From: an uncultured Candidatus Saccharibacteria bacterium | Lineage (GTDB): Bacteria; Patescibacteriota; Minisyncoccia; Phycocordibacterales; PALSA-1337 | NCBI GenBank assembly: GCA_964359745.1 | Contig: CAYHTR010000002.1 | Span: 1 to 38,409, forward strand | Reading direction: 5' to 3' | Length of the DNA: 38,409 nt | Shown here: positions 9,305 through 27,925 of the stretch, one piece after another | Numbering within the stretch: the first letter of the stretch is position 1 | How the letters are laid out: the number at the start of each line of letters is the position of its first letter | Position numbers and translations under genes: made by a program | Notes under the pieces: model-generated | The model's database searches: none | The model's input: only the letters and a program-made list of their open reading frames with translations | Told to the model about the DNA's origin: nothing

Positions 9305-9320
9305 ATAGCCATAATTGTAG

Positions 9321-9326: not shown

Positions 9327-9333
9327 ACTGCTT

Positions 9334-11990: not shown

Positions 11991-12031
11991 AATCAAAAGA
12001 ATATGAACAAAAATGGTTGGAATATTATAAT
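11986..12031 (+). repeat. 46-nt direct repeat, copy 2 (spans the FkbM stop and the start of the polytopic gene)
   Basis: Identical to the copy at 11170-11215. Contains the ATG at 12003. Confidence 0.9.
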
Positions 12032-16283: not shown

Positions 16284-16897
16284 TTTTTACTCGCTTTAGC
16301 TATTTTTTCTTTTAAACAAAAAGTAATGAGGTGAAATAACACAACATGAAATGATTCCACAAGGGGTGTTGAATCCACCGGCACAACAACGGAAACATTA
16401 GACATCTTTTTCATCGCCCCACCATCAAAACCAGAAATTCCTATGGCTGTCCCACCATTATCTTTTGCAAATTGCAACGCTTTCAAAAGATTCTGCGACC
16501 ATGCTCCCGCTTTATCTTTACCGGCTCCTCCGTGAACACTAAAAGCGATTACTACACTTCCTTTGCTCCAGTAAGTATTAAGTATGCCAGTATAGGCCTC
16601 ATGCCAACCCCAATCATTGGTAGCAGCACTTATCATTGGAATATTATCAGCCAACGCAATAGCACGGATACCTCTTTCATGAGGGTGTTCAATTGTGGTT
16701 TTTATTAAATCTCCTACAAAATGGGTAGCTGTTCCTGCTGAACCGCCATTACCAACGACAAAAACCCATTTGCCTTTTTTCCATGCGTCAAAGAGTGTGT
16801 CCACCACCTTAATAATCGCCTTTTCCTGCAATTTAAGTTTACCTATTACAACTTGAGAGTCCTTCCAGTATTTGTTCACGAATTTTTTTTCAAACAT
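16280..16897 (-). CDS. gmhA: D-sedoheptulose-7-phosphate isomerase (SIS domain, GmhA-like)
   Basis: ORF 16280-17029. The likely start is the ATG at 16897 (MFEKKF), because the longer form overlaps the upstream Nudix gene. SIS motif VVGNGGSAGTATHFVGDL. ATGA overlap with tal. Confidence 0.8.
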   Translation of the reverse strand: MFEKKFVNKYWKDSQVVIGKLKLQEKAIIKVVDTLFDAWKKGKWVFVVGNGGSAGTATHFVGDLIKTTIEHPHERGIRAIALADNIPMISAATNDWGWHEAYTGILNTYWSKGSVVIAFSVHGGAGKDKAGAWSQNLLKALQFAKDNGGTAIGISGFDGGAMKKMSNVSVVVPVDSTPLVESFHVVLFHLITFCLKEKIAKASKK

Positions 16898-16949
16898 CAA
16901 AATATTGTATACCTTTAATAACCAGTATGCAAACAATAAAAAAACCGCC

Positions 16950-17531
16950 CTAAAAAAGAGCGGGTGATACTTCGTAAGTAAAATGAGCAAAGATTCCAGC
17001 GAGTGTTGCAATATCTTTAATTTCTCCATTTTTTATTTTTTGAAGAACTTCCTGTGGAGTAAGAATAATGACATCAACTCCTTGTTTTTCGTCTTGTTTT
17101 CTGATTTCAGATGTAGGCACACAATCAAAAGCTAAGAATAAATGACATCTGTTTTCGATGCGGTCATTTTGAGTGAAAAAACCAAATTTATTAATACGAA
17201 TTAATCGTCCAGGTTTATATCCAGTTTCTGCAATCATTTCTTCTAATACCTGTTCTTCTGGTATTATTCCATCAGGACATCCGCCCGCGATTAATTCTAT
17301 ACTCATCTCAGATACAGGCCGACATTGACGCACAAAAAGAAATCTACCATTGGAAAGTCGGGAACAAACAGCGACATATCCGTTTCCGAAAATCTTAACT
17401 AAAAGAAAATCGGTAATCGTATTACCATTATCGAAATGTACATCAGACAGTGAGACTTTTGCCCATTCGTCTATATGTAACACTTTGGTTTCTTCAATCC
17501 TTCTGGTTAAAGCAACTTTTTTTACTTTCAT
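16950..17531 (-). CDS. Nudix-fold hydrolase with a divergent Nudix box
   Basis: 193 aa. GGCPDGIIPEEQVLEEMIAETGY aligns to GGx..GE.peeaa.RELxEEtG, but Arg and the first Glu of REx2EE are replaced (E and A). A strong SD (AGGAGGAG) lies upstream of the ATG at 17531. Confidence 0.55.
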   Translation of the reverse strand: MKVKKVALTRRIEETKVLHIDEWAKVSLSDVHFDNGNTITDFLLVKIFGNGYVAVCSRLSNGRFLFVRQCRPVSEMSIELIAGGCPDGIIPEEQVLEEMIAETGYKPGRLIRINKFGFFTQNDRIENRCHLFLAFDCVPTSEIRKQDEKQGVDVIILTPQEVLQKIKNGEIKDIATLAGIFAHFTYEVSPALF

Positions 17532-17597: not shown

Positions 17598-18140
17598 TTA
17601 TTTCGTCAATATGAAAATTAAATCTTCTGTTTTTAAAAAACCATCAATACTAAAATCGCTTTTTAAAGAAGTATTGTAAAACGCTTTCATAAGAATACTT
17701 TTGCAACCAGCGTTTTTTGCCGCTTCGGTATCATTTTCAGTATCGCCAATAAAAAAAGATTGTGAAAGATCAATATTCCATTTTTTTTCTGCATCAATAA
17801 GCATTCCAGGTTTTGGTTTTCTGCAATTACAATTTTCATTCGGATGATGAAAACATATAAAAATATCATCAAAAGGCAATCTTGCCACCTTATCTTGTAT
17901 ATAATCAAAATCTTCCTGATTTATATTTCCATATTTAATGTCTGGCTGATTAGTCGCAAGAATCGCCAAATATCCAAGTTTTTTTACGGCTTCAATAGCT
18001 TCCTTAATGCCCGGCAAAAAACCACTTTTTTCATCAAATTCTTTTTTGCTATATGGAGGAGTGATTTTACCATTACGAATAATGGTTTTTAAAATAACCC
18101 CATCTCTATCAAAAAACACCGCTTTTTTCTTTATTCTCAT
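17598..18140 (-). CDS. gmhB: D-glycero-D-manno-heptose 1,7-bisphosphate phosphatase (HAD superfamily, GmhB)
   Basis: 180 aa. VFFDRDGVI (DxD nucleophile motif) and CFHHPNENCNCRKPKPGML (the GmhB/HisB-N zinc-finger insert). Confidence 0.9.
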   Translation of the reverse strand: MRIKKKAVFFDRDGVILKTIIRNGKITPPYSKKEFDEKSGFLPGIKEAIEAVKKLGYLAILATNQPDIKYGNINQEDFDYIQDKVARLPFDDIFICFHHPNENCNCRKPKPGMLIDAEKKWNIDLSQSFFIGDTENDTEAAKNAGCKSILMKAFYNTSLKSDFSIDGFLKTEDLIFILTK

Positions 18141-18499: not shown

Positions 18500-19102
18500 A
18501 TGAAATCTATTAAAACCCAAACTGATGTACGCCTCGTTGAAGCGTATATTCTCACCAAAATAGAAAAACACGACTATCAAGGAAACCCAGACCCACTAAA
18601 ACAAGCAATTCTTAATCAACCTTTGTATGTGTACGAAAATCGAAGAAAGTTTTTCTTGGTTCTTAGTATCATTATCCAAATAATCATACCCTTTTTTTGT
18701 TACTGGGCATCGTGGTCATTAACATTAAAAGGATCAGACTGTGTATCTTTTACCGCAATAATGTGGCTCACGTTTGGAGGCCTCGCCCTACTTCTAAGCG
18801 TCATAATGTCATTTCATTTCGGTCCCAGTGAATTAGTCTTAGGATGGAAGAGGGACTGCTTGAATTTTGAACAGAAATTCAACACAACCGCACCTGACGA
18901 ATGTACTTTCGATGTGCTTTCCGAAATTGCGGATGATGAGCTAATGAAAAAGGCGGGTGAAGTGCAACACTATGAGAAAGGAAATGACACCAGAAACAAA
19001 TTCATGCATCAGGTGACACGAGATCAGTTTAAAGAAATGTACCACGCAGCATCCAGTCTCGGCCTTCATATCAGAGAGGTAAAAGACTATTTCATGGTCT
19101 AA
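18500..19102 (+). CDS. hypothetical membrane protein (two predicted TM helices), orphan
   Basis: 200 aa. Hydrophobic segments FFLVLSIIIQIIIPFFCYW and AIMWLTFGGLALLLSVIMSF. Sample line is about 43% GC. It is the only plus-strand gene between 13800 and 25356. Confidence 0.5.
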   Translation: MKSIKTQTDVRLVEAYILTKIEKHDYQGNPDPLKQAILNQPLYVYENRRKFFLVLSIIIQIIIPFFCYWASWSLTLKGSDCVSFTAIMWLTFGGLALLLSVIMSFHFGPSELVLGWKRDCLNFEQKFNTTAPDECTFDVLSEIADDELMKKAGEVQHYEKGNDTRNKFMHQVTRDQFKEMYHAASSLGLHIREVKDYFMV

Positions 19103-19125
19103 ATAAAACCTGTAAAATTCAATCG

Positions 19126-19156: not shown

Positions 19157-19159
19157 TTC

Positions 19160-20143
19160 TTATGGTTTAATTATATGAACTCTGGCGCCTTGGGTATCTA
19201 ATTTAAAATCCATTTCACGCATTTTGAAAGATTCAAGAGCTTTTTGAACTTTAGTTTTTATTTTTTGAGAAGGACAATAAAACATAAAATAACCGCCCCC
19301 GCCTGCGCCCATAATTTTTCCACCAAGAGCACCAGCTTTGCGAGCTTTCTCATATATTTCATTAAAAAGATCACTACTCATTTTATTAGACATAGTTTTT
19401 TTAATCTCCCAATGTTCATTCATAAGTTTTCCAAAACTATCCAAATCTCCTTTGATAAAACATTTCAAAATTTCTTTGCCTATTGTTTTTGTTTTATGTT
19501 TTGATTCCAGTATTTTGGTTTGATTTTGTTCAGCCAAAATATGCTTGCTTTCACGAACCACTCCAGTGTAATAAAACAAACTATTATTAAAAAACTTCGT
19601 CACAGTTTTTTGTTCAATTTTTGGCTTTTTTATTTTTATATCACCATTTTTATCTATTTCCAAAACAACAAAACCACCAAGCGAACAAACATAGGGATCT
19701 TGCACACCGTCAGGTAATTCAAGTGCACGAGTTAATTTAAAAGATTGCTCCGCCGCGCTTTTATTACTCATTTTATTACCTCGAAAAGCTGATAACCCTT
19801 TCATAACCGCAACTGCGCAAGCTCCAGACGAGCCAAGTCCTGTGCCTGCTGGGGTATCAGCTTTAAAAGTTATCGCCACTTTATTTTTTATATCGTGCAT
19901 TATAAGTGCTTGGCGGGCTATTTCGTGACTAATATCTTCCACTCTAGTAACTGATTCAAAATTTTTATAATGAACATGAATAAAATCATCAGATCTCGGC
20001 TCTTTTATAAATACATCCATATAAAGATTTATTGTAACCCCAAATATAAAACCGCCGTGTTTTTCGTAATAAGAAGGTAAATCGGTAGAACCACCACCTA
20101 AAGACAGCCGAAACGGTACACGACTAATAATAATTTTTGACAT
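19160..20143 (-). CDS. hddA: GHMP-family sugar kinase, D-glycero-alpha-D-manno-heptose-7-phosphate kinase (HddA)-like
   Basis: 327 aa. N-terminus RVPFRLSLGGGSTDLPSYY and GHMP motif PAGTGLGSSGACAVAV. Sits in a heptose-pathway gene context. Confidence 0.75.
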   Translation of the reverse strand: MSKIIISRVPFRLSLGGGSTDLPSYYEKHGGFIFGVTINLYMDVFIKEPRSDDFIHVHYKNFESVTRVEDISHEIARQALIMHDIKNKVAITFKADTPAGTGLGSSGACAVAVMKGLSAFRGNKMSNKSAAEQSFKLTRALELPDGVQDPYVCSLGGFVVLEIDKNGDIKIKKPKIEQKTVTKFFNNSLFYYTGVVRESKHILAEQNQTKILESKHKTKTIGKEILKCFIKGDLDSFGKLMNEHWEIKKTMSNKMSSDLFNEIYEKARKAGALGGKIMGAGGGGYFMFYCPSQKIKTKVQKALESFKMREMDFKLDTQGARVHIIKP

Positions 20144-20146
20144 ATT

Positions 20147-22129
20147 TTAAAGTATAAGCTTTTTTAATTTTTTGGCTATAGTAACAGAAGTTATGATTTT
20201 TCCTTCAAGCACAGAAAAACAACCAAATCCGTGCTTGGCAATACTTGTAACCCTATCATCATTTTTTCTGGAAGACATATCTATGGTAAGAGCCACAAAT
20301 ATTGATTTTATATATTTAGCTTGTTTCAAGATAGGCAACCATTTTGAACATCGTTTTAACATTTTTAATATTCTTGGCTTAACATTTTTTTTCCAATTTT
20401 GAAAATCTTTATCAGAATATATTTTTTTTGAAGAATGAACCGAAAGAGGTACATCACCGAATGTATAAAAATCAGTATTGCCAATCGGAACAATTGTGGC
20501 AAAAGGTCCATCAACAATCATAACCGCCTGAGGTTTTGGTCCTTTTATTTGTATTATCGAAAACTCTTTAAATCTAAATTCCAATTCTCTTTTAGCAAAA
20601 CCGAGCATATCAACAATAGTATTATAATTAGCATATGTGGCATTAATTACATAATCAAATACTTCAATTTTATGGCCACCGTTTGAATTAAAAGTCAGCA
20701 TTTTTTTGCCATCTTTTATTATTTTTATTTTTTTTACTTCCGCTCCAAGTTTTAATGATACATTTTTATTTTCAATTCCTTTTTTCATCAATCTTTTTAA
20801 AATATTGTAGTCATAAACTGCTTCATTTGTTTTTATACAAGTACTCACTTCATCTTTATTAAGAAAATCATCATTAGGATATTCTTCTTTATAAACAAGA
20901 TTATTATCTTTGCATACTTGACGAAATTCATCACTGGTAATTTTTGAATCACTTTTAGAAACAGCAATATAACTTGGTATTTTTACAATCGCTTTACCAT
21001 ATATTTTCTCAAAATCAGCCGTTGATTCTTTAATTTGTTTTATTGTCTCTGGACTTCTCGGATAATGATAACCTTGATGGTGACGATATTGATTAGCATA
21101 TGACGCTTCAGTAAGAATATCTTTATGTCTTTCAAAAATAGTTACTTTAAATTTCTCTCCAAGAATAGATGCTGTAGTCATTCCAAAAATACCAGCGCCT
21201 ATAATTGCAATATTGGGTTTTATTTGATGAGCCATAGATTGCTCCGCAATTGAAATAATTCGCACACCGACTTCCCCATCTGGAAAAATCTTTTTTTTAT
21301 TACTTATGACATCAATAAAACATTTAATTTCTTCTTCAAGCGGTTCATTCCCTTCAGCTTTTATTATTTTTTGCTCACCATTACGATAAATAATTTTTAA
21401 TTCCCAATTATCAAAATCAGCTGTAATAAAACTTATATCGCTTTTTTTAAAATAAAATCTTAGTAAACGTTCTTTTTTTTCACTTTCCCAACCAATTTTT
21501 AAAGAAACATTAAGATTTTTTTCATATCTGAGATCAACATTTGTTATTTTTTCAATTTGACGAGACCAAACAACAGACGGGCTTTTTTTATAAAGGGCAT
21601 CAATAATATCAAAAAGATGCAGTAATTCCATAGGTCCAGATAAACCAGTATCAAATTTTATAGGACTTATGAAAAATCCTTCTATTTTTTCTACATTATT
21701 AGATTTTAGTAGATATTCTTTTAATAAAATAAGAAGAGGATGAAAACGAAAAATATGGCCAACCATAAGCTTTTTTTTATGTTTTTTAGCTAAATCGGCA
21801 AGTTTTTTTGCGTCTTTATAATTATCAGCAAGAGGTTTTTCTACAAAAACATCAACGAAAGGCAAACATTTTTTTACTATTTCAAAATGAGTATCCATTG
21901 GCGTGACAATATCTACCGCATCAACTTCTTGCAAAATATTTTCAGTAATCTCTGTAAAAACAGGTACATCAAACTCTTTAATAATTTGTTGTTTGGATTT
22001 TTCTGATTTTACCACAACCCCATATAAAGAAAGCAAATTTTGTTTATCAAGTAATTTAAGTACTCGTAAATGATTTCTACCAAAACGGCCAGCTCCTATC
22101 AAGAGAATTTTTATTTTTCTATTATTCAT
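20147..22129 (-). CDS. two-domain oxidoreductase fusion: N-terminal Gfo/Idh/MocA NAD(P)-binding oxidoreductase and C-terminal FAD-dependent (DAO-like) oxidoreductase
   Basis: 660 aa in a single ORF. First Rossmann motif KILLIGAGRFGRNH with EKPLA further on (residues 1 to ~290). Second dinucleotide motif NIAIIGAGIFGMTTASILGEKFKVTIFER begins near residue 305. Confidence 0.7.
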   Translation of the reverse strand: MNNRKIKILLIGAGRFGRNHLRVLKLLDKQNLLSLYGVVVKSEKSKQQIIKEFDVPVFTEITENILQEVDAVDIVTPMDTHFEIVKKCLPFVDVFVEKPLADNYKDAKKLADLAKKHKKKLMVGHIFRFHPLLILLKEYLLKSNNVEKIEGFFISPIKFDTGLSGPMELLHLFDIIDALYKKSPSVVWSRQIEKITNVDLRYEKNLNVSLKIGWESEKKERLLRFYFKKSDISFITADFDNWELKIIYRNGEQKIIKAEGNEPLEEEIKCFIDVISNKKKIFPDGEVGVRIISIAEQSMAHQIKPNIAIIGAGIFGMTTASILGEKFKVTIFERHKDILTEASYANQYRHHQGYHYPRSPETIKQIKESTADFEKIYGKAIVKIPSYIAVSKSDSKITSDEFRQVCKDNNLVYKEEYPNDDFLNKDEVSTCIKTNEAVYDYNILKRLMKKGIENKNVSLKLGAEVKKIKIIKDGKKMLTFNSNGGHKIEVFDYVINATYANYNTIVDMLGFAKRELEFRFKEFSIIQIKGPKPQAVMIVDGPFATIVPIGNTDFYTFGDVPLSVHSSKKIYSDKDFQNWKKNVKPRILKMLKRCSKWLPILKQAKYIKSIFVALTIDMSSRKNDDRVTSIAKHGFGCFSVLEGKIITSVTIAKKLKKLIL

Positions 22130-23048
22130 TTTTTATAATATCCTTAACCATATACGGGGAACGGTCAGGATTATCATAATAAATACGCAACATCATTTCA
22201 GCTAAAAGTCCTATCATAAAAAGCAAAACACCGAGAATAGCAAAAAGTGTTCCGACAGTTGGAAGTGGTGTTTCGGTAATATTTAAAATATGCATTAATC
22301 TAAGCCAAACAGAAAAACCAAAAGCTATTAAAGCTAAAATCATACAAACTAAACCCCAACCACCAAAAAAACGAAGTGGTTTTGAGAAATATTTAACAAA
22401 AAATGCTACACTTAAAAAATCAAAAACTCCTTTAATCATTTTTGAAATGCGAATTTTTGACACACCCACTTGACGATAATGATATGTGACTGGAACTTCT
22501 GTAATTTTTGCTCCTCTTTCTTTTGCTACCGCAACAAGAAAAACTTGCGATTCGCCTCGCAAACGAAAATCTTTTATAAACTTACTTCTGTACGCTTTGA
22601 GTCCACAGCCAAGGTCGTGAACTGAAATACCTAAAATCAATCTCGCACACCAGTTGGCAAAGGCAGAAAATAACATACGACTAAAAGCATCTTTGCGGTT
22701 TTTTCTTAAACCAATAACAACATCAAATCCTTCTTCCATTTTTTTAAGAAGGGTTATAATTTCAGCCGGGTCATTTTGCAAATCAGCATCAAGCAATACA
22801 ATTATATCGCCCCGCGAAATATATATTCCCATATCGATTGTCGCTGTCTGTCCATAATTGCGTTGAAGAGAAACCAGTTTGAGAGGTTTAAGTTTTGAAG
22901 CAATTTCTTTTGTCTTATCTCTTGAACAATCATTGACAAATATAATCTCATATTGCTCTTTTTGAGACCTCATAACATCAAAAATGCGCCTATAAAGCTC
23001 AACAACAGTCTTTTCTTCGTTAAAAATAGGCACAATAACGGATATCAT
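22122..23048 (-). CDS. glycosyltransferase family 2, polyprenyl-phosphate sugar synthase type (GtrB/ArnC/DPM1-like) with C-terminal TM helices
   Basis: 308 aa. ISVIVPIFNEE, FVNDCSRDKT, LLDADLQNDP, and two C-terminal hydrophobic helices. 8-nt overlap with the downstream fusion gene. Confidence 0.85.
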   Translation of the reverse strand: MISVIVPIFNEEKTVVELYRRIFDVMRSQKEQYEIIFVNDCSRDKTKEIASKLKPLKLVSLQRNYGQTATIDMGIYISRGDIIVLLDADLQNDPAEIITLLKKMEEGFDVVIGLRKNRKDAFSRMLFSAFANWCARLILGISVHDLGCGLKAYRSKFIKDFRLRGESQVFLVAVAKERGAKITEVPVTYHYRQVGVSKIRISKMIKGVFDFLSVAFFVKYFSKPLRFFGGWGLVCMILALIAFGFSVWLRLMHILNITETPLPTVGTLFAILGVLLFMIGLLAEMMLRIYYDNPDRSPYMVKDIIKNE

Positions 23049-23057
23049 AATCGGCTC

Positions 23058-23063
23058 ATTATA
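23058..23063 (-). promoter_or_regulatory. TATAAT -10 box (minus strand) about 9 nt upstream of the GT2 start codon
   Basis: The minus strand reads ...CCCCGTTTTTTTTATATAATGAGCCGATTATG. The box lies directly downstream of the terminator hairpin. Confidence 0.35.
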
Positions 23064-23092
23064 TAAAAAAAACGGGGTTTTATCAACCCCGT
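23064..23092 (-). terminator. rho-independent terminator of the radical SAM gene
   Basis: The minus strand reads ACGGGGTT GATAA AACCCCGT followed by TTTTTTTT: an 8-bp perfect stem starting about 10 nt after the stop codon. Confidence 0.75.
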
Positions 23093-23101
23093 CTGTGTTT
23101 C

Positions 23102-24649
23102 TTAACTTTTTACAGCCAATTCCGCCGCACCGGACTGCCAGCGGTGTCCTGCACTCGCTTCAATCCGCGAACGAATGTACTCTTTTGAATTTGCGTAACC
23201 CCACCCCCAATCCCGAAGTTCGACGATCTTTTCTGGAGCCACAGCGGTGTTTTTCATCACCGCATGCTTCCAATTTAAAAGATCTGAGTCAAAATCACGA
23301 CTGAGATGACCATTGGCAATCGCATATTCAAACAATTTTGAGCCCGGAAATGGAATAGGAATGAAAAATGTGCAATACGGAGCGCCGGCTTCGACGATCT
23401 CTTTGCCCATTTCAATACTATTTCTGATTTCATCTTCCGTTTCGTCCGGAAACCCAATCATCATGTTGATCGGCGAAACAATACCGAGTTCCGCCGCGAT
23501 TTTCACCAAGTCAAAAATATCGAGTCGATCGTGATGCAATTTACCCGTCGCATATTTGTTTAGAATACGCTGATTGGCAGATTCCACCGGAAACACAATT
23601 TGGTCAAAACCAGAATCCCGCAAAAGTGCAAGGTAGTCCTTGTCAATTACGAGACGATTTCCTTCGCGTTTCTGTAGATGGACTAAGTTGACCCCGTTTA
23701 TTGCTCCGATGGTGAATCCCATAGCACGCATTCTAGTGAAAATCTCCACTATGCGTGCTTTGTTTGCGAGAAGCGAATCATCTTCAAAGAAGAGCTTTGT
23801 AACGCCCAACTTTTTCAAACGACTGACTTCTTCCATAACCCTCTCAATTGACTTGAGACGCAAAGAGCCAATACCCCCACTATCTCCTTCTCTTTCTTTT
23901 TCAGTAGAGATATGACAATACCAACACTTGAACGGACATCCTCGTGACGTCGCAATTGGAGCATATCTGCCCGGATTAATGGACAGAACGGCATGGCTTG
24001 AACTGATTCCGTCATAGTGTTTGAACGGCAATTTTTCCCAAGCAGGAAAAGGTAAACCGTCCAAGTCTTGATAGACATCTTCAGGAACAAGCGGTTTACG
24101 GATTATTTTTCCGTCTCGCATTGTTATGACCCCGGAAACTTCCGCAAGGTCTTCTCCCTTAAGCCAAGCATGTATCATATTGACCATTATCCGTTCTCCT
24201 TCTGTCGAACAGATAGCATCAATGTTGCCGTGTTTCAAAAGGCGTTCTGGCATATTTCGAGCATTCACTCCGCCCGAAAGCACCAAAATATCCCGAGAAA
24301 TGGCTTTTACTGTTGCCGCCACTTCAAGGACAATTCTGATTTGCGGGGTAAAGTTTGAGCTTATTCCCACAATGTTATAATTACCATTCGCAACAAAATC
24401 ACGAATACTTTCAATCGTCATACCAATTCGGACCAAGCCATTGGCTTGCATCTCGCTTCGATAAAACGTTTCCTTCAGATTTGAATCTTCAGGACCAACT
24501 GAGGCATCGAGGATATCTGTTTCATATCCCGCCTTTTCTAGAGCTCCAGCCAGATAAATCGGTCCCAAAGAACCGTCTGGCCGAGGCGTCTCGATTGACA
24601 TAAGCTGATTTGGTGGGTATATCAGCAATACTTTTGGTTGTTTCTTCAT
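23102..24649 (-). CDS. B12-binding domain-containing radical SAM enzyme (class B radical SAM family)
   Basis: 515 aa. The N-terminal region has the layout of a cobalamin-binding Rossmann-like domain (VLLIYPP...YLAGALEKAGYETDILD). CxxxCxxC cluster motif SRGCPFKCWYCH. Sample lines are 40-57% GC. Confidence 0.88.
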   Translation of the reverse strand: MKKQPKVLLIYPPNQLMSIETPRPDGSLGPIYLAGALEKAGYETDILDASVGPEDSNLKETFYRSEMQANGLVRIGMTIESIRDFVANGNYNIVGISSNFTPQIRIVLEVAATVKAISRDILVLSGGVNARNMPERLLKHGNIDAICSTEGERIMVNMIHAWLKGEDLAEVSGVITMRDGKIIRKPLVPEDVYQDLDGLPFPAWEKLPFKHYDGISSSHAVLSINPGRYAPIATSRGCPFKCWYCHISTEKEREGDSGGIGSLRLKSIERVMEEVSRLKKLGVTKLFFEDDSLLANKARIVEIFTRMRAMGFTIGAINGVNLVHLQKREGNRLVIDKDYLALLRDSGFDQIVFPVESANQRILNKYATGKLHHDRLDIFDLVKIAAELGIVSPINMMIGFPDETEDEIRNSIEMGKEIVEAGAPYCTFFIPIPFPGSKLFEYAIANGHLSRDFDSDLLNWKHAVMKNTAVAPEKIVELRDWGWGYANSKEYIRSRIEASAGHRWQSGAAELAVKS

Positions 24650-24675
24650 TTAAAGACCTTTCTAAAGCCAGAATA

Positions 24676-25356
24676 TCACAAGATATTAAATTTTGCGACA
24701 TCTTCTGCTGTTGAAAGAGAAACATCTGGAATACCAAGCACTGCATAAACATCATTATCTTTTAAAAATTGTCCCAACATTGAAGTTAAATAATACTCTC
24801 CTTTATTATGAAGCCACGGCTTATATTTAAAAATACTGTCATCTACAAGCATTACACTTCCAGCAGAAATAAATGGAGGTTTAGAACCGCCTCTTTTTTC
24901 CGAAACTTTTATTATTTTACCGGATTTATCAAGTTTAACCACACCAGTAGGAATGGAATAAGTAAAAGAATGACAAACCCAACTATATTCATTTTTTAGA
25001 CAAAGCTTTATTTCCTCTTTTGTTGTAAAAGCGTCGCCGTAAACAACAAAAAATCTCTCTTTATTATTGTTTTTAAAAAGATGTTTAGTCTTGAGAAGAG
25101 CATCTGCTGTGCCTAACGGTTTTTCTTGTTCAACATAAGTAATAGAATGATTGAGATATTTTTTTTTAAGATGATTTTTTATTTGTTCGCCTTTATATCC
25201 AATTACTATAATAAATTCATTTACAATTTTTGGAAAAGAATCAATAATGTGTTCAATAAAAGGTTTTCCACGAACTAAAACAAGTGGTTTTGGAATTTCA
25301 TCGGTAAGTGGAGCCATACGAACACCTTTTCCTGCGGCAAGTATTACAGCTTTCAT
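24676..25356 (-). CDS. hddC: sugar-1-phosphate nucleotidylyltransferase, D-glycero-alpha-D-manno-heptose-1-phosphate guanylyltransferase (HddC)-like
   Basis: 226 aa. MKAVILAAGKGVRMAPLTDEIPKPLV NTP-transferase signature. The size and gene context fit HddC, but nucleotide specificity cannot be read from the sequence. Confidence 0.65.
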   Translation of the reverse strand: MKAVILAAGKGVRMAPLTDEIPKPLVLVRGKPFIEHIIDSFPKIVNEFIIVIGYKGEQIKNHLKKKYLNHSITYVEQEKPLGTADALLKTKHLFKNNNKERFFVVYGDAFTTKEEIKLCLKNEYSWVCHSFTYSIPTGVVKLDKSGKIIKVSEKRGGSKPPFISAGSVMLVDDSIFKYKPWLHNKGEYYLTSMLGQFLKDNDVYAVLGIPDVSLSTAEDVAKFNIL

Positions 25357-25403: not shown

Positions 25404-26192
25404 ATGCCAATAGGTTCATTTTTATCTCATTTTCATCAAGTAAAATTAAGTACTGCTGATGAAAAAGAATATAATATGGTTATTAATCCAATTGTAAAAA
25501 TTGGGCTTCTAATTATTGGTATTCCTCATATTGGTCTTAGAATGCGTATATTACTTATCAAAAAGATTGCAAAAAAACTGTCAAAAAATACTTTAGTGTT
25601 AGATGCCGGATGCGGTTATGGCGTATTATCCTTTGAATTAGCAAAACTTGGTTTATCAATTGAATCTATTGATTTTGATTCAAATAGAATTAAACAAGTA
25701 ACTGATATGACTAAGGATTTTCCAAAACTTGGCAAATATATAAATCCGCATACAGGATCAGTTTTAGAAATAAATTGTCCAGATAAAAAATTTGACCTAA
25801 CCATATGCTCCGAAGTAATTGAACATTTAAAACAAGATGGCCAAGCGGTAAAAGAATTATCTAGAGTGACAAAATCTGGCGGATTAGTTGTTATTTCTGT
25901 ACCTACCGATTCTCCACGAAATTTTGTAGAATTTCGCAAATTAGGGCACGAACGACCTGGTTATAGTAAAAAAATGCTTGAAGATTTAGCCGATAAAAAT
26001 AATTTAAAATTAATAAAATATATTCCTTACGAATTTACTATAGGTCGCATTTCAGCACGTCTTAATCTTGCATTAAAATATCCTCCCTTAATAGCTCTTT
26101 TATTTTATCCTTTTTATATTATTTCTTTTCTTGATTTTTTAATTCCAATGGGAGAAGCCAATGCTAGTGTCACTATATTCAAAAAAAATTAA
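25404..26192 (+). CDS. class I SAM-dependent methyltransferase with flanking hydrophobic segments
   Basis: 262 aa. VLDAGCGYGVLSFELAKLG motif I and CSEVIEHLK..GGLVVISVP. An alternative ATG lies at 25476. Its stop overlaps the stop of the convergent gene within TTAA at 26189-26192. Confidence 0.75.
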   Translation: MPIGSFLSHFHQVKLSTADEKEYNMVINPIVKIGLLIIGIPHIGLRMRILLIKKIAKKLSKNTLVLDAGCGYGVLSFELAKLGLSIESIDFDSNRIKQVTDMTKDFPKLGKYINPHTGSVLEINCPDKKFDLTICSEVIEHLKQDGQAVKELSRVTKSGGLVVISVPTDSPRNFVEFRKLGHERPGYSKKMLEDLADKNNLKLIKYIPYEFTIGRISARLNLALKYPPLIALLFYPFYIISFLDFLIPMGEANASVTIFKKN

Positions 26193-27925
26193 TTTATTTT
26201 GTATATAGCAAAGTTTTCATCATCATAAACCCGTGTGAAATGCGGAAGTAAATCTGGTCTAAATGCTGATGGATATTTTTTATCTTTTATTGCGTAATTA
26301 ACATTAAACTTTTTTAATTCTGTTTCGATATTTTTCTTTATATCATTACGATATTTATTATATAAATTAACAAAATATTCTTCGCCTTTAAAAGAAACTG
26401 TGTCCTTCAATTCTCCACAATTTACGCCAAAAAAATCAAGTTTAAAAAACTTACATAACGTCACGGCTCGATTATGTGTCTTATATTGGTGAACTGCATT
26501 CCCCACACCAGCAAAATCCCTGTATTGATTTTCTATATCCTTCAAACTTAAATTATTAAAATAACTATAGACTAAATATCTTTCTTCTAACTCTTTATTA
26601 GACAAAAGATGTAAATGGCTGGTACCAGGTGTAAAAAGAAGGTAATGTTTTGTCATAACTGGTATATAACGCACAAGATAATCTGAATCGGTCCAAATAA
26701 CCGACTGCTTTTTTTCATTCATTTCAAGCCATTTCAACGGCGGAGCATATTTTTGAAGATATAAACTCTGTGATTTTAACTCATCTACTACTGAAAAATA
26801 AATACTGTATTCACTAAAATACTTTAACACTCCAAACAACGATATAAAAGAAATTATTATCAAAACAATTTTATATTTCTTTGATAAATTATAAAAATCA
26901 CTTTTGTGTTTATATATAAAAAATAATACCGCTCCAAAAGCGCAGACAAGCCATACAATAATAAATCGTTCTATATGTTGAGAGTTTTCTAATTCTTTGC
27001 CAGTTATAATATTACTTGTTGAAGCAATAATCATTGCAAAACCTGAAAAAACAAATAGTAAATAAGCATTATTAGTCCAACGTTTTGTTATATACAACAA
27101 AAATAACATTGCAAAAACCCAAAAACCAGAATAAAAGACGTTTGAAGCAAGTAAATGAGTATTTACCAATCCAATGCGTTGCATAGATTCCCAATAAAAA
27201 GGATGGTTAACTTGTTTTATACTATAAATAAATAATGGCAAAGCTAATAATAGTGAGAAAAAAATAACAAAACAAATGCGTTTAGCTTTTATTTTGTCAT
27301 GCATAATGAAAAAAGTAATCATACTAATAAACATGGTCACAAAAGTAATCTGCCAAAGGTATGTATAAATATAAAAAGAAAAAGTAGTTGCTAAAATTAA
27401 AACAAAAGTATTTTTTTTGTTTTCGGGATTTTTTAACCAATTAGCAAAAGCAAAAAGAAAAAAAGAAAAAAATGGAAAAACAATTTGCATTGATACAGCT
27501 CGCATCATAAGAGAATAAACGCATAAATATGCAAATACTGCGATTACGCTACTCACTTCTTTTGATATATCTAATCGTTTAAGAAAAAGAAATAAAAAAA
27601 AGACAAATATAATAGACCAAAAAATCGTATCAAAAATGATAGTCGAGGTAAATGATAATCCAAAAAATAAAGGTACGGCTGCCACCCAATCAGAAACAAA
27701 AAATGCTGGTGCTATTTCTTTGTTATGTTCAAGTAAAAAGGGGTTACCGATAAATGGATTACCATCTTTAACTTCGTGCGTTCTAGCATAATAATAGACA
27801 CTATCGTTATATCCAGGTGTCACATCTTGCCACACTGTATTAACAGTCAAATATACCTCTAGAAGAGGAAATAATAACACTACAAAGAATATAGTTAAAG
27901 AAATATATGGAATTATTTTTTTCAT
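26189..27925 (-). CDS. large polytopic membrane protein with C-terminal soluble domain (paralog of 12003-13748)
   Basis: 578 aa with many hydrophobic helices. The first-loop motif DSVYYYARTHEVKDGNPFIG aligns without gaps to EFGYVARIQEISDGHGLIG of the other protein. Confidence 0.6.
   Translation of the reverse strand: MKKIIPYISLTIFFVVLLFPLLEVYLTVNTVWQDVTPGYNDSVYYYARTHEVKDGNPFIGNPFLLEHNKEIAPAFFVSDWVAAVPLFFGLSFTSTIIFDTIFWSIIFVFFLFLFLKRLDISKEVSSVIAVFAYLCVYSLMMRAVSMQIVFPFFSFFLFAFANWLKNPENKKNTFVLILATTFSFYIYTYLWQITFVTMFISMITFFIMHDKIKAKRICFVIFFSLLLALPLFIYSIKQVNHPFYWESMQRIGLVNTHLLASNVFYSGFWVFAMLFLLYITKRWTNNAYLLFVFSGFAMIIASTSNIITGKELENSQHIERFIIVWLVCAFGAVLFFIYKHKSDFYNLSKKYKIVLIIISFISLFGVLKYFSEYSIYFSVVDELKSQSLYLQKYAPPLKWLEMNEKKQSVIWTDSDYLVRYIPVMTKHYLLFTPGTSHLHLLSNKELEERYLVYSYFNNLSLKDIENQYRDFAGVGNAVHQYKTHNRAVTLCKFFKLDFFGVNCGELKDTVSFKGEEYFVNLYNKYRNDIKKNIETELKKFNVNYAIKDKKYPSAFRPDLLPHFTRVYDDENFAIYKIN

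What the first reader, a model, noticed from the sequence alone, without database searches (positions are those of the whole stretch)
19160..25356. Heptose-nucleotide genes interleaved with a B12-radical SAM enzyme, a polyprenyl-phosphate GT2 and a fused oxidoreductase: candidate undescribed heptose-tailoring and carrier-loading pathway
The minus-strand run is hddC-like nucleotidyltransferase (24676-25356), B12-radical SAM (23102-24649), GtrB/ArnC-type GT2 (22122-23048), Gfo/Idh/MocA-FAD fusion (20147-22129), then hddA-like kinase (19160-20143). The two enzymes specific to the GDP-D-glycero-alpha-D-manno-heptose route (kinase and nucleotidyltransferase) bracket three enzymes with no role in the textbook GmhA-HddA-GmhB-HddC pathway.

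The characterised heptose tailoring of Campylobacter capsules uses SDR-type C4 dehydrogenases/reductases and cupin epimerases. None of those lie in this run.

Inference: the activated heptose is oxidised and/or modified by radical chemistry (class B radical SAM enzymes are mostly C- or P-methylases). It would then be transferred to a polyprenyl phosphate for use by the GT-C-type enzymes elsewhere in the window. I am not aware of a described pathway with this enzyme combination.
Basis: partly seen in the sequence, partly recalled or inferred. Interest (0 to 1): 0.78.

Follow-up and report, generated by a model that had tools for sequence, protein, structure and literature searches.

The report
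Conserved heptose operon with B12-radical-SAM enzyme
A candidate-phyla-radiation bacterium carries a widely shared but undescribed operon that appears to build a seven-carbon sugar, alter it with a vitamin-B12-dependent radical enzyme and load it onto a membrane lipid carrier for surface decoration; the gene linkage is real and strongly conserved, but the chemistry is still only inferred.

Summary

**The run is part of a longer operon.** The GmhB-like phosphatase, a NUDIX, the GmhA-like isomerase and a transaldolase/FSA follow on the same strand (17598-15612). A Pfam-invisible GT-C transferase lies just upstream (26189-27925).

**The linkage is not chance.**
- In 33 loci of >=16 kb that encode this rSAM family, from CPR, DPANN archaea, Proteobacteria and Nitrospirae, 32 carry a heptose kinase within 10 kb.
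- 27 loci have the GHMP/HddA type. Four have the non-homologous PfkB/HldC ADP-heptose set with a GT9 heptosyltransferase. One has both.
- In the ADP-type loci the kinase, NTase and GT2 are swapped for PfkB, HldC and GT9, while the rSAM and a TAL_FSA gene remain.

**What each enzyme looks like.**
- The rSAM is therefore a heptose-pathway enzyme, with no named or solved close relative.
- The Gfo-DAO fusion is accessory: it occurs in about half of the loci and also in non-heptose clusters. It is a GnnA-like sugar 3-dehydrogenase fused to a glycine-oxidase-fold flavoenzyme.
- The GT2 is ArnC/GtrB-like.
- The nucleotidyltransferase is not specifically HddC-like.

Gentamicin tailoring already combines these enzyme classes, so I rate this a new variant of a known kind, interest about 0.65.

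The parts
24676..25356 (-). Sugar-1-phosphate nucleotidyltransferase (226 aa). Inferred heptose-1-P NTase; nucleotide specificity undetermined.
   Evidence: Pfam NTP_transferase 74 bits. NCBIfam best is Arch_glmU N-domain at 140 bits, with HddC only 80 against a cut-off of 300. PDB best is GlmU-N 2v0h at E 1.6e-19; HddC-type 5xhw/6jq8 reach E 1.5e-11 over about half the length. It lies immediately upstream of the rSAM in 14 of 33 loci. It is absent from all four ADP-route loci, where an HldC-like gene is present instead.
23102..24649 (-). Cobalamin-binding (class B) radical SAM enzyme (515 aa) of an unnamed, strongly conserved family. It is the constant partner of heptose biosynthesis genes.
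   Evidence: Pfam B12-binding 52.8 bits plus Radical_SAM 66.3 bits. It carries CPFKCWYC, i.e. C238/C242/C245. Best NCBIfam model is Sden_1168 at 157 against a cut-off of 575. Best PDB profile hit is OxsB at E 2e-9. More than 120 clusters at 54-83% identity. 32 of 33 loci carry a heptose kinase within 10 kb. GC3 is 0.42 against 0.14-0.24 in neighbours.
23058..23094 (-). Terminator-like hairpin directly after the rSAM stop, overlapping the best promoter-like match upstream of the GT2.
   Evidence: 10-bp stem, 5 G-C pairs, T-run (23094-23070). TTGATA-17-TATAAT matches 11 of 12 (23086-23058). These are pattern matches only; total counts in the region are not above shuffles.
22122..23048 (-). Polyprenyl-phosphate glycosyltransferase of the ArnC/GtrB/DPMS type (GT2, 308 aa, two C-terminal TM helices).
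   Evidence: Pfam Glycos_transf_2 99.4 bits. PDB ArnC 9bhc/8vxh at E 3e-40 over residues 2-306, GtrB 5ekp at 7e-23, DPMS 5mlz at 5.5e-20. TM segments at 233-251 and 265-283. Present in 30 of 33 loci. 18 of 20 orthologs keep the TM pair. GT9 takes the slot right after the rSAM in three of the four ADP-route loci.
20147..22129 (-). Two-domain oxidoreductase (660 aa). The N-half (about 1-300) is a Gfo/Idh/MocA NAD(P) sugar C3-dehydrogenase/ketoreductase type. The C-half (about 301-660) is a DAO-family FAD enzyme. It is an accessory tailoring module.
   Evidence: Pfam GFO_IDH_MocA 92.1 bits and DAO 42.3 bits. AF2 pLDDT 93.3. Foldseek: GnnA 7bvj at E 8e-23, TM 0.87, rmsd 2.2 A, plus KijD10 and GenD2; the C-half matches glycine oxidase 4ysh (TM 0.73) and D-arginine dehydrogenase 6p9d (TM 0.71). 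State in 33 loci: fused 8, separate adjacent 3, DAO only 4, Gfo only 1, neither 17. Also found without heptose or rSAM genes.
19160..20143 (-). GHMP kinase of the D-glycero-D-manno-heptose-7-phosphate kinase (HddA/WcbL) clade (327 aa).
   Evidence: NCBIfam best is HddA at 140 bits (cut-off 600), next is fucokinase at 102. PDB 3k85 at E 7e-39, 4usm at 1e-33, WcbL 4usk at 2e-33, 4n3o at 1e-31. Present in 28 of 33 loci.
18500..19102 (+). Opposite-strand ORF (200 aa, 2 TM-like segments, no family) interrupting the kinase|phosphatase junction. Probably a lineage-specific insertion and not part of the pathway.
   Evidence: No Pfam or NCBIfam hit. No tblastn match in any of the 50 loci, including the 78%-identity sibling L044, where kinase and HAD are adjacent. 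GC3 is 0.41.
17598..18140 (-). HAD-IIIA phosphatase, GmhB-like (heptose-1,7-bisphosphate 7-phosphatase candidate).
   Evidence: NCBIfam best is GmhB PRK08942 at 110 bits (cut-off 178). It passes the HAD-IIIA (85.5 vs 44.6) and histidinol-phosphatase-domain (102.6 vs 84.15) models. Present in 21-22 of 33 loci.
16950..17531 (-). NUDIX hydrolase, weakly NDP-sugar pyrophosphatase-like. Occasional operon member.
   Evidence: Pfam NUDIX 25.7 bits. Weak YffH/NudK matches. Present in 5 of 33 loci, directly after the rSAM in 3.
16280..17029 (-). SIS-domain sedoheptulose-7-P isomerase (GmhA-like). The true start is probably M45 (16897).
   Evidence: Pfam SIS_2 37 bits. NCBIfam best is gmhA TIGR00441 at 85 bits (cut-off 209). 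Present in 26 of 33 loci. Homologs are 205 aa. The alternative start removes an 80-bp overlap with the NUDIX gene.
15612..16283 (-). Transaldolase / fructose-6-P aldolase family enzyme. Inferred supplier of sedoheptulose-7-P (alternative: octulose-8-P, LmbR-like).
   Evidence: Pfam TAL_FSA 141.8 bits. NCBIfam fsa_talC_mipB 154 bits (cut-off 246). Present in 27-28 of 33 loci. A second TAL subtype accompanies the rSAM in the ADP-route loci.
26189..27925 (-). Pfam-less polytopic membrane protein with a GT-C glycosyltransferase fold. Candidate user of the polyprenyl-P-sugar.
   Evidence: No Pfam or NCBIfam hit. About 85 homolog clusters, all 'hypothetical'. 12 TM-like segments. AF2 pLDDT 95.3. The top 19 Foldseek hits are all GT-C (PglB, STT3, AglB, AftA, ArnT, ALG12, PimE, AftB, AftD). 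A homolog at 32% identity occurs in ADP-route locus L060.
12003..13748 (+). Second Pfam-less polytopic protein, a distant paralog of 26189-27925 and so a probable GT-C. It frequently co-occurs with the operon.
   Evidence: No Pfam or NCBIfam hit. 9 TM-like segments. 22% identity over the full length to unk578, E 5e-6. Present in 15 of 33 loci.
34011..35351 (-). PMT_2-like (GT-C, ArnT/PMT family) membrane protein.
   Evidence: Pfam PMT_2 25.5 bits, just below the 26.1 cut-off. 8 TM-like segments.
36581..38275 (-). PMT_2 family GT-C membrane glycosyltransferase.
   Evidence: Pfam PMT_2 32.9 bits, above the 26.1 cut-off. 10 TM-like segments.
31389..32471 (-). DegT/DnrJ/EryC1 sugar aminotransferase. 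Possible partner of the oxidoreductase.
   Evidence: Pfam DegT_DnrJ_EryC1 249.9 bits. Present in 12 of 33 loci, adjacent to the NTase in the loci that have only the DAO or only the Gfo half (L009, L016, L029, L052).

Best explanation
The finding is the central part of a conserved, horizontally mobile operon for a modified, lipid-carrier-linked heptose used in cell-surface glycosylation. The steps below are marked as shown or inferred.

1. **Sugar-phosphate supply.** A transaldolase/FSA supplies sedoheptulose-7-P. A GmhA-like isomerase, an HddA-like GHMP kinase and a GmhB-like phosphatase convert it to heptose-1-P. Family-level assignment plus synteny are shown; the product is inferred.
2. **Activation.** The NTase activates heptose-1-P to an NDP-heptose. 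This is inferred from complementary distribution with HldC. The nucleotide is unknown.
3. **Radical step.** The B12-binding radical SAM enzyme performs a radical modification of the heptose skeleton. The most likely reaction is C-methylation at an unactivated carbon, as GenK and GenD1 do on aminoglycoside sugars. The enzyme is retained, without extra divergence, when the kinase, NTase and transferase are all replaced by the ADP-heptose set. Its substrate is therefore probably nucleotide-independent. Sedoheptulose-7-P and heptose-7-P are the only intermediates common to both routes; a heptose residue after transfer is the other option. This is inference.
4. **Optional redox tailoring.** In about half of the lineages, a GnnA/GenD2-like NAD(P) domain and a DAO-fold FAD domain, fused here, add redox tailoring. 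This could be keto-sugar formation for the DegT aminotransferase, or an oxidise/re-reduce epimerisation. This is inference.
5. **Carrier loading and use.** The ArnC/GtrB-like GT2 transfers the sugar to polyprenyl phosphate. After flipping, GT-C enzymes of the window attach it to an unknown surface acceptor. The candidates are the two Pfam-less proteins and the PMT_2 proteins. Architecture and fold are shown; the donor and acceptor are inferred.
For: - ORFs and domains are confirmed.
- Downstream, on the same strand, lie HAD-IIIA/GmhB-like, SIS/GmhA-like and TAL_FSA genes.
- The kinase's best PDB relatives are all heptose-7-P kinases.
- The rSAM family has more than 120 clusters at 54-83% identity.
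- Synteny NTase-rSAM-GT2-Gfo-DAO-kinase/HAD-SIS-TAL recurs in many CPR lineages. Partly rearranged versions of the same gene set occur in Deltaproteobacteria, Woesearchaeota, Nitrospirae, Pelagibacteraceae and Dehalococcoidales contigs.
- Counts in 33 loci of >=16 kb: GT2 30, kinase 28, TAL 27-28, SIS 26, HAD 21-22, NTase 19-26.
- Four loci, forming one clade in the rSAM tree, carry PfkB + HldC-like + GT9 heptosyltransferase + TAL in place of GHMP + NTase, and in three of them GT9 occupies the GT2 slot right after the rSAM. One further locus has both sets, so 32 of 33 loci have a heptose kinase within 10 kb.
- The GT2 aligns with ArnC at E 3e-40 over its full length and has two C-terminal TM helices.
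- The fusion's N-half matches GnnA at TM 0.87, and its C-half matches glycine oxidase and D-arginine dehydrogenase at TM about 0.72, from a model with pLDDT 93.
- In 3 loci the two halves are separate adjacent genes.
- unk578 has a GT-C fold.
- There is precedent for B12-rSAM sugar C-methylases working beside Gfo-fold and FAD dehydrogenases and aminotransferases (PMC4340712, PMC4039129).
Against: - No protein reaches an equivalog cut-off, for example HddA 140 vs 600, GmhA 85 vs 209, HddC 80 vs 300. Substrate identity therefore rests on family-level similarity plus context.
- The NTase resembles the GlmU N-domain and archaeal NTases more than HddC.
- The rSAM has no characterised close relative. 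Its nearest solved relatives include non-methylating enzymes (OxsB, AprD4) and its next NCBIfam hits are HpnJ and BchE, so methylation is only the most common outcome for class B enzymes.
- The fusion also occurs in clusters without heptose genes, so its substrate here could be a different sugar.
- A dedicated transaldolase is the hallmark of the lincomycin octose route (PMC4351081).
- A terminator-like hairpin separates the rSAM from the GT2, so the run may be two transcription units.
- A polyprenyl-phosphate-heptose donor has, to my knowledge and in my searches, not been described.
Confidence: 0.6

Rival explanations
1. The pathway makes a nucleotide-activated octose rather than a heptose, by the lincomycin logic. 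The transaldolase (LmbR-like) would condense a C3 unit with ribose-5-P to give octulose-8-P. A GmhA-like isomerase (LmbN), kinase (LmbP), phosphatase (LmbK) and NTase (LmbO) would follow. Gfo-type oxidoreductase (LmbZ-like) and aminotransferase (LmbS-like) tailoring would come last.
For: The same five enzyme classes, including a dedicated transaldolase, define the lincomycin C8 route (PMC4351081 Table 2; PMC12945683). TAL_FSA is retained in 27-28 of 33 loci, including contigs labelled Nitrospirae and Pelagibacteraceae; from general knowledge, not checked here, such organisms should already make sedoheptulose-7-P. One Giovannonibacteria locus also carries SDR epimerase, Gfo, UDPG_MGDP_dh-like and DegT genes, matching the LmbM/Z/L/S classes.
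Against: In four loci the rSAM and TAL sit with a PfkB kinase, an HldC-like adenylyltransferase and a GT9 heptosyltransferase, which is the ADP-heptose machinery. The Deltaproteobacteria locus lacks TAL and SIS within 10 kb but lies beside LPS heptose genes (HldE, GT9). This fits use of host-made heptose-7-P. The kinase's best relatives are heptose-7-P kinases. Orthology to the Lmb proteins could not be tested because no Lmb sequences were available in the tools.
Confidence: 0.12
2. The rSAM is not a methyltransferase. It would catalyse another radical transformation of the heptose, such as epimerisation, dehydration/deoxygenation or a ring rearrangement, with cobalamin in a non-methyl-transfer role.
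For: The nearest solved relatives by profile are OxsB (ring contraction) and AprD4 (diol dehydratase). NCBIfam hits after Sden_1168 are HpnJ and BchE, neither an established methylase. A non-B12 rSAM, AbmJ, epimerises a heptofuranose C3 (PMC9978623).
Against: All these similarities are weak (E about 1e-9; 95-157 bits against cut-offs of about 480-580). From general knowledge, most characterised class B enzymes are methylases, and the sugar-acting ones GenK and GenD1 are C-methylases. No sequence test available here separates the two options.
Confidence: 0.3
3. The run is a mosaic of two pathways. The kinase-phosphatase-isomerase-TAL genes (with the rSAM) would make a heptose. The GT2 and the Gfo-DAO fusion would handle a different sugar, for example a UDP-HexNAc oxidised at C3, and would merely be co-located in a large glycan island.
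For: The fusion's N-half is closest to UDP-GlcNAc 3-dehydrogenases. The fusion occurs next to other GTs in clusters without heptose or rSAM genes and is missing from 17 of 33 rSAM loci. A hairpin and promoter-like site separate the rSAM from the GT2.
Against: The GT2 co-occurs with the rSAM in 30 of 33 loci and starts within 400 bp of its stop in 11. In three of the four ADP-route loci a heptosyltransferase (GT9) takes that position, which argues that the GT2 is the heptosyl-transferring step. The GT2 and fusion genes overlap by 8 bp, and the fusion is 3 bp from the kinase gene. The compact 8-gene operons (L007, L008, L012, L048) contain no second NTase or sugar pathway.
Confidence: 0.15

Closest known systems
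GDP-D-glycero-alpha-D-manno-heptose pathway (GmhA-HddA-GmhB-HddC) of S-layer and capsule biosynthesis
   Same: It uses the same four enzyme classes in one operon. The kinase's closest solved relatives are the heptose-7-P kinases 3k85, 4usm, WcbL 4usk and 4n3o. The HAD and SIS proteins hit GmhB and GmhA models best.
   Different: All scores are far below the equivalog cut-offs. The NTase is not HddC-like by sequence. A dedicated transaldolase, a B12-rSAM and a polyprenyl-P GT2 are integral parts here. From my own knowledge, they are not part of the textbook route.
Gentamicin sugar tailoring (GenD2/GenS2/GenN/GenD1 and GenK/GenQ/GenB1)
   Same: It combines a Gfo-fold NAD sugar 3''-dehydrogenase, cobalamin-dependent rSAM C-methylases acting on unactivated sugar carbons, an FAD dehydrogenase, PLP aminotransferases and SAM methyltransferases (PMC4340712, PMC4039129). 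The GenD2 structure 6nor is among the fold matches of the fusion's N-half.
   Different: The gentamicin enzymes act on a pseudo-oligosaccharide antibiotic in actinomycetes, not on a heptose precursor. GenK and GenD1 do not appear among the rSAM's family hits. The Gfo and FAD enzymes are not fused there. No polyprenyl-phosphate step is involved.
ArnC/ArnT, GtrB/GtrA/GtrC and PgfS-type three-component glycosylation (polyprenyl-P GT2 + flippase + GT-C)
   Same: The GT2 aligns over its full length with ArnC and GtrB, and has the two C-terminal TM helices. PMT_2/ArnT-like and other GT-C proteins are encoded nearby.
   Different: The donor sugar would be a heptose derivative, not Ara4FN, Glc or GlcNAc. 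ArnC scores 164 against a cut-off of 529, so this is not an ArnC ortholog. No GtrA-type flippase was identified in the window, although one is present in the related locus L005. Two of the GT-C candidates belong to a family without any Pfam model.
Lincomycin/celesticetin octose route (LmbR, LmbN, LmbP, LmbK, LmbO; then LmbM/L/Z/S)
   Same: It has a dedicated transaldolase plus isomerase, kinase, phosphatase and NTase, followed by oxidoreductase and aminotransferase tailoring (PMC4351081, PMC12945683).
   Different: It is a secondary-metabolite pathway to a C8 thio-sugar, with no rSAM and no lipid carrier step. Here, association with GT9 and HldC-type ADP-heptose genes points to C7.
DprE1/DprE2 epimerisation of decaprenyl-phosphoryl-ribose (analogy from my own knowledge, not tested)
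   Same: A flavin oxidase plus an NAD(P)H reductase act in tandem next to a polyprenyl-phosphate sugar-forming step.
   Different: DprE1 has a FAD_binding_4 (VAO) fold and DprE2 is an SDR, so they are not homologous to the DAO and Gfo domains here. The resemblance is in logic only.

Membership tests
GDP-D-glycero-alpha-D-manno-heptose pathway | GHMP kinase orthologous to HddA (heptose-7-P 1-kinase) | tested here: inconclusive
   HddA is the best NCBIfam model but scores 140 bits against a cut-off of 600. The top four PDB hits are heptose-7-P kinases at E 7e-39 to 1e-31. Clade membership is likely; equivalog status is not met.
GDP-D-glycero-alpha-D-manno-heptose pathway | HddC-type heptose-1-P guanylyltransferase | tested here: not met
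   HddC model 80 bits against a cut-off of 300. Arch_glmU (140), AglF (104) and MurU (85) score higher. HddC structures 5xhw/6jq8 reach only E 1.5e-11 over residues 3-113. The role is inferred from synteny and from replacement by HldC in ADP-route loci.
GDP-D-glycero-alpha-D-manno-heptose pathway | GmhA isomerase and GmhB phosphatase encoded with the kinase | tested here: inconclusive
   The SIS protein's best model is gmhA at 85 against 209. The HAD protein's best model is GmhB at 110 against 178, and it passes the HAD-IIIA subfamily cut-off. Both co-occur with the kinase in most loci.
GDP-D-glycero-alpha-D-manno-heptose pathway | Product is GDP-D-glycero-alpha-D-manno-heptose | not testable with these tools
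   Needs enzyme assays with LC-MS or NMR.
Class B (cobalamin-dependent) radical SAM enzymes | N-terminal B12-binding domain plus radical SAM core with a CX3CX2C cluster motif | tested here: met
   PF02310 52.8 bits (cut-off 32.1) at residues 29-156. PF04055 66.3 bits (cut-off 29.5) at residues 234-413. C238, C242 and C245 are invariant in 13 family members.
Class B (cobalamin-dependent) radical SAM enzymes | Membership of a named subfamily (Sden_1168, PhpK, HpnJ, HpnR, BchE, AprD4, TsrM and others) | tested here: not met
   Best is Sden_1168 at 157 bits against a cut-off of 575; all others are lower. The best PDB profile hit is OxsB at E 2e-9. The nearest paralogous tier is also unnamed.
Class B (cobalamin-dependent) radical SAM enzymes | Methyl transfer via methylcobalamin | not testable with these tools
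   No sequence criterion available here separates methylases from OxsB- or BchE-type enzymes.
Polyprenyl-phosphate GT2 (ArnC/GtrB/DPMS type) | GT-A GT2 catalytic domain followed by a C-terminal pair of TM helices, homologous over the full length to ArnC/GtrB | tested here: met
   PF00535 99.4 bits. ArnC 9bhc at E 2.7e-40 over residues 2-306; GtrB 5ekp at 6.7e-23. TM segments 233-251 and 265-283. The pair is conserved in 18 of 20 orthologs.
Polyprenyl-phosphate GT2 (ArnC/GtrB/DPMS type) | ArnC orthology (Ara4FN donor) | tested here: not met
   PRK10714 scores 164 bits against a cut-off of 529.
Nucleotide-sugar C3 dehydrogenases/ketoreductases of the Gfo/Idh/MocA family (GnnA, WlbA, GenD2, KijD10) | Gfo/Idh/MocA Rossmann domain plus C-terminal alpha/beta domain with a fold match to GnnA-type enzymes | tested here: met
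   PF01408 92.1 bits. Foldseek 7bvj at E 7.6e-23, TM 0.87, rmsd 2.2 A, 23% identity; KijD10 and GenD2 are also matched.
Nucleotide-sugar C3 dehydrogenases/ketoreductases of the Gfo/Idh/MocA family (GnnA, WlbA, GenD2, KijD10) | Equivalog of UDP-GlcNAc 3-dehydrogenase; C3 regiochemistry | tested here: not met
   NF040723 scores 117 bits against a cut-off of 450. Regiochemistry is not testable here.
DAO-family (glycine oxidase / D-amino-acid dehydrogenase fold) flavoenzymes | PF01266 domain with N-terminal dinucleotide-binding GxGxxG and a matching two-domain fold | tested here: met
   PF01266 42.3 bits (cut-off 27.9). G311, G313 and G316 are invariant in 41 sequences. Foldseek 4ysh at TM 0.73 and 6p9d at TM 0.71. 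The substrate class (amine or alcohol) is undetermined.
GT-C glycosyltransferases | Polytopic N-terminal module with the GT-C fold, plus conserved acidic residues in the first external loop | tested here: met
   unk578: AF2 pLDDT 95.3. The top 19 Foldseek hits are all GT-C enzymes; the first 15 have prob 1.00 and E 4e-6 to 2e-3, at TM 0.40-0.48. E66 is invariant and D79 nearly invariant after the first TM helix. There is no Pfam model. The catalytic role of these residues is not tested.
Lincosamide octose pathway (LmbR/N/P/K/O) | Orthology of the transaldolase, kinase and other enzymes to Lmb proteins, and a C8 product | not tested
   Lmb sequences could not be obtained with the tools, and the two primary papers are not held. 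Only the enzyme-class match could be established. The GT9/HldC-linked loci argue for C7.

The most novel reading that the evidence does not exclude
The B12-radical SAM enzyme acts on a sugar phosphate, either sedoheptulose-7-P or D-glycero-D-manno-heptose-7-P, before anomeric activation. It would create a C-methyl-branched or chain-extended higher-carbon sugar that then flows through either the GDP- or the ADP-type activation route. In the GHMP-type operon the product would be delivered as a polyprenyl-phosphate-heptose. That would be a previously undescribed lipid-linked heptose donor for a new, Pfam-less family of GT-C transferases. The system would be a widespread, B12-requiring surface-glycan trait of CPR bacteria and DPANN archaea.
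Probability: 0.25. Interest if true: 0.82.

Novelty: new variant of a known kind. Interest (0 to 1): 0.65.

Why it matters
If correct, this defines a new function for a large, tightly conserved family of cobalamin-dependent radical SAM enzymes: modification of a heptose. It also defines a new kind of lipid-linked sugar donor, polyprenyl-P-heptose.

The system is concentrated in CPR bacteria and DPANN archaea. From general knowledge, their cell surfaces are essentially uncharacterised and mediate their episymbiotic lifestyle.

It would also imply that these reduced-genome organisms need cobalamin for surface-glycan synthesis.

Three unannotated families become assignable:
- the rSAM;
- the Gfo-DAO fusion, with more than 120 clusters;
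- a Pfam-less GT-C family.

All steps are directly testable with recombinant enzymes.

Tried and rejected
- **Archaeal origin.** Several best NCBIfam hits were archaeal models. This was rejected: the 100%-identical and closest proteins come from Patescibacteria MAGs.
- **Chance juxtaposition.** Rejected by synteny counts in 33 loci.
- **UDP-galactopyranose-mutase-like role for the FAD half.** The idea came from a NAD_binding_8 hit. It is not supported: the C-half fold matches among the 50 listed Foldseek hits are glycine oxidase and D-arginine dehydrogenase, and no mutase appears among them.
- **2-hydroxyglutarate-recycling role for the FAD half.** This would be analogous to the alpha-ketoglutarate-dependent NAD recycling of WbpB/WlbA (from memory). 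Only a very weak LhgO hit supports it (18 bits). It stays as speculation and is not adopted.
- **Domain fusions of the rSAM as a substrate clue.** None exist in the family proper.
- **The ~970-aa fusion variants.** They carry an extra, apparently GT-A-like C-terminal domain (judged by eye from a DDD motif) with no Pfam hit. This was not informative for the substrate.
- **Cobalamin riboswitch or any Rfam element in the window.** None found.
- **Phage carriage of the rSAM.** Only a 21%-identity B12-rSAM in Streptomyces phage SF3.
- **Literature linking a B12-rSAM to heptose, or an undecaprenyl-P-heptose/GT-C system.** Nothing relevant.
- **Primary LmbR/LmbN and LmbK/LmbO papers.** Not held, so the octose rival could not be tested by sequence.
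- **One invalid literature query**.

Full report
**Observation**

Pfam supports each domain assignment above its gathering threshold:
- NTP_transferase (24676-25356).
- B12-binding plus Radical_SAM (23102-24649).
- Glycos_transf_2 (22122-23048).
- GFO_IDH_MocA plus DAO (20147-22129).
- GHMP kinase N and C domains (19160-20143).

Gene spacing is operon-like: 26 bp, 53 bp, an 8-bp overlap and 3 bp. None of the five reaches any NCBIfam equivalog cut-off. They are divergent members of their families, not annotated orthologs.

**Organism and wider context**

Several best hits were archaeal models, but the window belongs to a Patescibacteria (CPR) MAG. The rSAM is 100% identical to an NCBI protein on a 42.6-kb contig. 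Its named close relatives are Patescibacteria/Parcubacteria proteins.

The window is one large glycan island. It holds many SAM methyltransferases, GT4 and GT2 enzymes, a DegT aminotransferase, an extended SDR, an ABC exporter, a NeuB-like/CMP-transferase block and PMT_2 (GT-C) proteins.

On the same strand, after the kinase, come four more genes:
- a HAD-IIIA phosphatase whose best model is GmhB (17598-18140);
- a NUDIX hydrolase (16950-17531);
- a SIS protein whose best model is GmhA (16280-17029);
- a TAL_FSA transaldolase/aldolase (15612-16283).

All enzyme types of the GmhA-HddA-GmhB-NTase route are therefore present, plus a precursor-supplying enzyme.

**Is the interleaving meaningful?**

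I collected 50 loci encoding the rSAM family from species-representative genomes. I then searched them with every protein of the window. Of 33 loci with at least 16 kb of sequence, the counts are:

| Window protein | Loci with it (of 33) |
|---|---|
| GT2_308 | 30 |
| GHMP kinase | 28 |
| TAL_FSA | 27-28 |
| SIS | 26 |
| HAD | 21-22 |
| NTase | 19-26 |

The order NTase-rSAM-GT2-Gfo-DAO-kinase/HAD-SIS-TAL recurs in many CPR lineages. Partly rearranged versions of the same gene set occur in contigs labelled Deltaproteobacteria, Woesearchaeota, Nitrospirae, Pelagibacteraceae and Dehalococcoidales.

**The decisive comparison**

Four loci lack the GHMP kinase and the window-type NTase (L014/L060, L024, L031, L038). 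Their rSAMs form a single clade nested inside the rSAM tree.

Instead, the rSAM sits with five other genes:
- a GT9 heptosyltransferase;
- a PfkB kinase;
- a CTP_transf_like adenylyltransferase;
- a HAD phosphatase;
- a TAL_FSA.

This is the non-homologous HldA/HldC ADP-heptose route. One Deltaproteobacteria locus has both sets. In all, 32 of 33 loci have a heptose kinase of one type or the other within 10 kb of the rSAM.

Two conclusions follow.

First, the rSAM is tied to heptose as such, which favours C7 over the octose alternative.

Second, three nucleotide-dependent enzymes are exchanged:
- GHMP kinase for PfkB;
- NTase for HldC;
- polyprenyl-P GT2 for GT9, which sits right after the rSAM in three of the four loci.

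This supports the view that the window's NTase and GT2 handle the heptose nucleotide, even though the NTase is not HddC-like by sequence.

The rSAM and TAL persist, and the rSAM is no more divergent in these loci (53-58% identity against 52-64%). This suggests that its substrate does not include the nucleotide. Sedoheptulose-7-P and heptose-7-P are the only intermediates the two routes share. This last step is inference.

**The individual enzymes**

- *Kinase.* The best NCBIfam model is HddA, and the four best solved relatives are heptose-7-P kinases.
- *GT2.* It aligns over its full length with ArnC (E 3e-40), then GtrB and DPMS. It has the two C-terminal TM helices of that class, conserved in 18 of 20 orthologs.
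- *rSAM.*
  - It has the canonical CX3CX2C motif and an N-terminal B12-binding domain.
  - It has no close characterised relative. The best NCBIfam model is Sden_1168 at 157 bits against a cut-off of 575, and the best PDB profile hit is OxsB at E 2e-9.
  - An exhaustive profile search found a compact family proper, with no domain fusions. The nearest paralogous tier is itself unnamed.
- *Fusion.*
  - It was modelled at pLDDT 93.3.
  - The N-half superposes on the UDP-GlcNAc 3-dehydrogenase GnnA (TM 0.87, rmsd 2.2 A). It also matches KijD10 and GenD2.
  - The C-half matches glycine oxidase and D-arginine dehydrogenase (TM about 0.72).
  - It is a large unnamed family of more than 120 clusters.
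  - It is accessory to the heptose core. In the 33 loci it is fused in 8, split into adjacent genes in 3, DAO-only in 4, Gfo-only in 1 and absent in 17.
  - It also occurs in glycan clusters without rSAM or heptose genes.

**Downstream users**

The window encodes two PMT_2-type proteins. It also encodes two polytopic proteins with no Pfam or NCBIfam hit.

One of these, 26189-27925, lies just upstream of the operon (separated from it only by an opposite-strand methyltransferase gene) and was modelled at pLDDT 95.3. Its top 19 structural matches are all GT-C glycosyltransferases: PglB, STT3, AglB, AftA, ArnT, ALG12, PimE, AftB and AftD.

The other, 12003-13748, is a distant full-length paralog. 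It co-occurs with the operon in 15 of 33 loci.

It also adds a new, unannotated GT-C family.

**Mechanism proposed**

The steps, with their basis, are:
1. TAL/FSA, then GmhA-like, HddA-like and GmhB-like enzymes, then the NTase give an NDP-heptose (family-level similarity plus context).
2. The rSAM performs a radical modification. C-methylation is the most likely reaction by analogy with GenK and GenD1. It possibly acts at the sugar-phosphate stage (inference).
3. The Gfo and FAD domains add optional redox tailoring. This could feed the DegT aminotransferase or give a net epimerisation (inference).
4. The ArnC-like GT2 transfers the sugar to polyprenyl phosphate, and GT-C enzymes use it outside the membrane (architecture shown, substrates inferred).

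**Comparison with known systems**

Gentamicin biosynthesis uses a comparable enzyme set (PMC4340712, PMC4039129):
- the NAD oxidoreductase GenD2 with aminotransferase GenS2;
- the N-methyltransferase GenN;
- the cobalamin-rSAM C-methylase GenD1;
- separately, the cobalamin-rSAM GenK with the FAD dehydrogenase GenQ and aminotransferase GenB1.

The sugar-phosphate part mirrors both the GDP-heptose route and the lincomycin octose route. The lincomycin route also has a dedicated transaldolase (PMC4351081, PMC12945683).

Four things are new here:
- the heptose context of the rSAM;
- the polyprenyl-phosphate loading of a heptose;
- the Gfo-DAO fusion;
- the spread through CPR and DPANN genomes.

I found no paper describing any of these. 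One ecogenomic survey notes that, among freshwater CPR, heptose-nucleotide synthesis is encoded only in Paceibacteria (PMC9166423).

**Verdict**

The linkage of the rSAM and GT2 to heptose synthesis is robust. The nucleotide, the rSAM reaction and its substrate, and the role of the fusion remain inferred.

I class it as a new variant of a known kind and rate interest at 0.65.

Noticed in passing
window 23102-24649: The rSAM gene is a synonymous-site outlier. Its GC3 is 0.42 against 0.14-0.24 for all operon neighbours. In the sibling contig L044 it is 78% identical to the window, while most of the other operon genes are 79-87% (the Gfo half is 74%). Elsewhere it is usually the best-conserved gene of the operon. 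This suggests recent replacement or transfer of the rSAM allele alone.
   Followed up: partly
window 18141-19159: An opposite-strand ORF (18500-19102, 200 aa, two TM-like segments, no family, GC3 0.41) interrupts the kinase|phosphatase junction. A possible small minus-strand ORF lies in about 18141-18340. Neither is present in the sibling L044, and the ORF has no tblastn match in any of the 50 loci. It is probably a lineage-specific insertion.
   Followed up: partly
window 23058-23094: A strong hairpin plus T-run lies directly after the rSAM stop. It overlaps the region's best sigma-70-like match (TTGATA-17-TATAAT) in front of the GT2. NTase-rSAM and GT2-fusion-kinase may be separate transcription units.
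   Followed up: no
window 16280-17029: The SIS/GmhA-like ORF as listed overlaps the NUDIX gene by 80 bp and begins with a hydrophobic 44-aa extension. Homologs are 205 aa, so the real start is probably M45 at 16897.
   Followed up: partly
window 42-3143: The left end holds a NeuB/PseI-like synthase (42-1079), a CMP-type cytidylyltransferase (1136-1894) and a class-III aminotransferase (1887-3143). The synthase has a TTG start, GC 0.49, GC3 0.51, and model matches only from residue 123. Together they suggest a nonulosonic-acid-like pathway in the same island.
   Followed up: no
L003/L011 2130-4742: In the Deltaproteobacteria contig, a second and different B12-binding rSAM (575 aa) lies directly after a GT9 heptosyltransferase, about 5 kb upstream of the main rSAM. 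This is another rSAM-heptosyltransferase pairing.
   Followed up: no
P0169, P0213, P0215 (homologs of window 20147-22129): Some Gfo-DAO fusion proteins are about 970 aa. They carry an extra C-terminal domain of about 300 aa that looks GT-A-like by eye (DDD motif) and has no Pfam hit.
   Followed up: partly
L057 17415-21938: A Gammaproteobacteria contig carries the fusion without heptose genes. It also encodes a FAD_binding_4 protein, an SDR and a UbiA prenyltransferase in a row. From memory, this arrangement resembles DprE1/DprE2/UbiA arabinofuranose-type chemistry.
   Followed up: no
window 14485-15588: A Fic-domain protein with an N-terminal winged-helix-like region (weak FUR and Arg-repressor hits) lies directly after the transaldolase on the same strand. 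It has no tblastn match in any of the 50 loci.
   Followed up: no
L001/L023 (Niyogibacteria) 8064-9916: In Niyogibacteria, two extended SDRs (GDP_Man_Dehyd/Epimerase type) sit between the GT2 and the rSAM, where the Gfo-DAO module lies elsewhere. The redox-tailoring module of the operon seems interchangeable.
   Followed up: no
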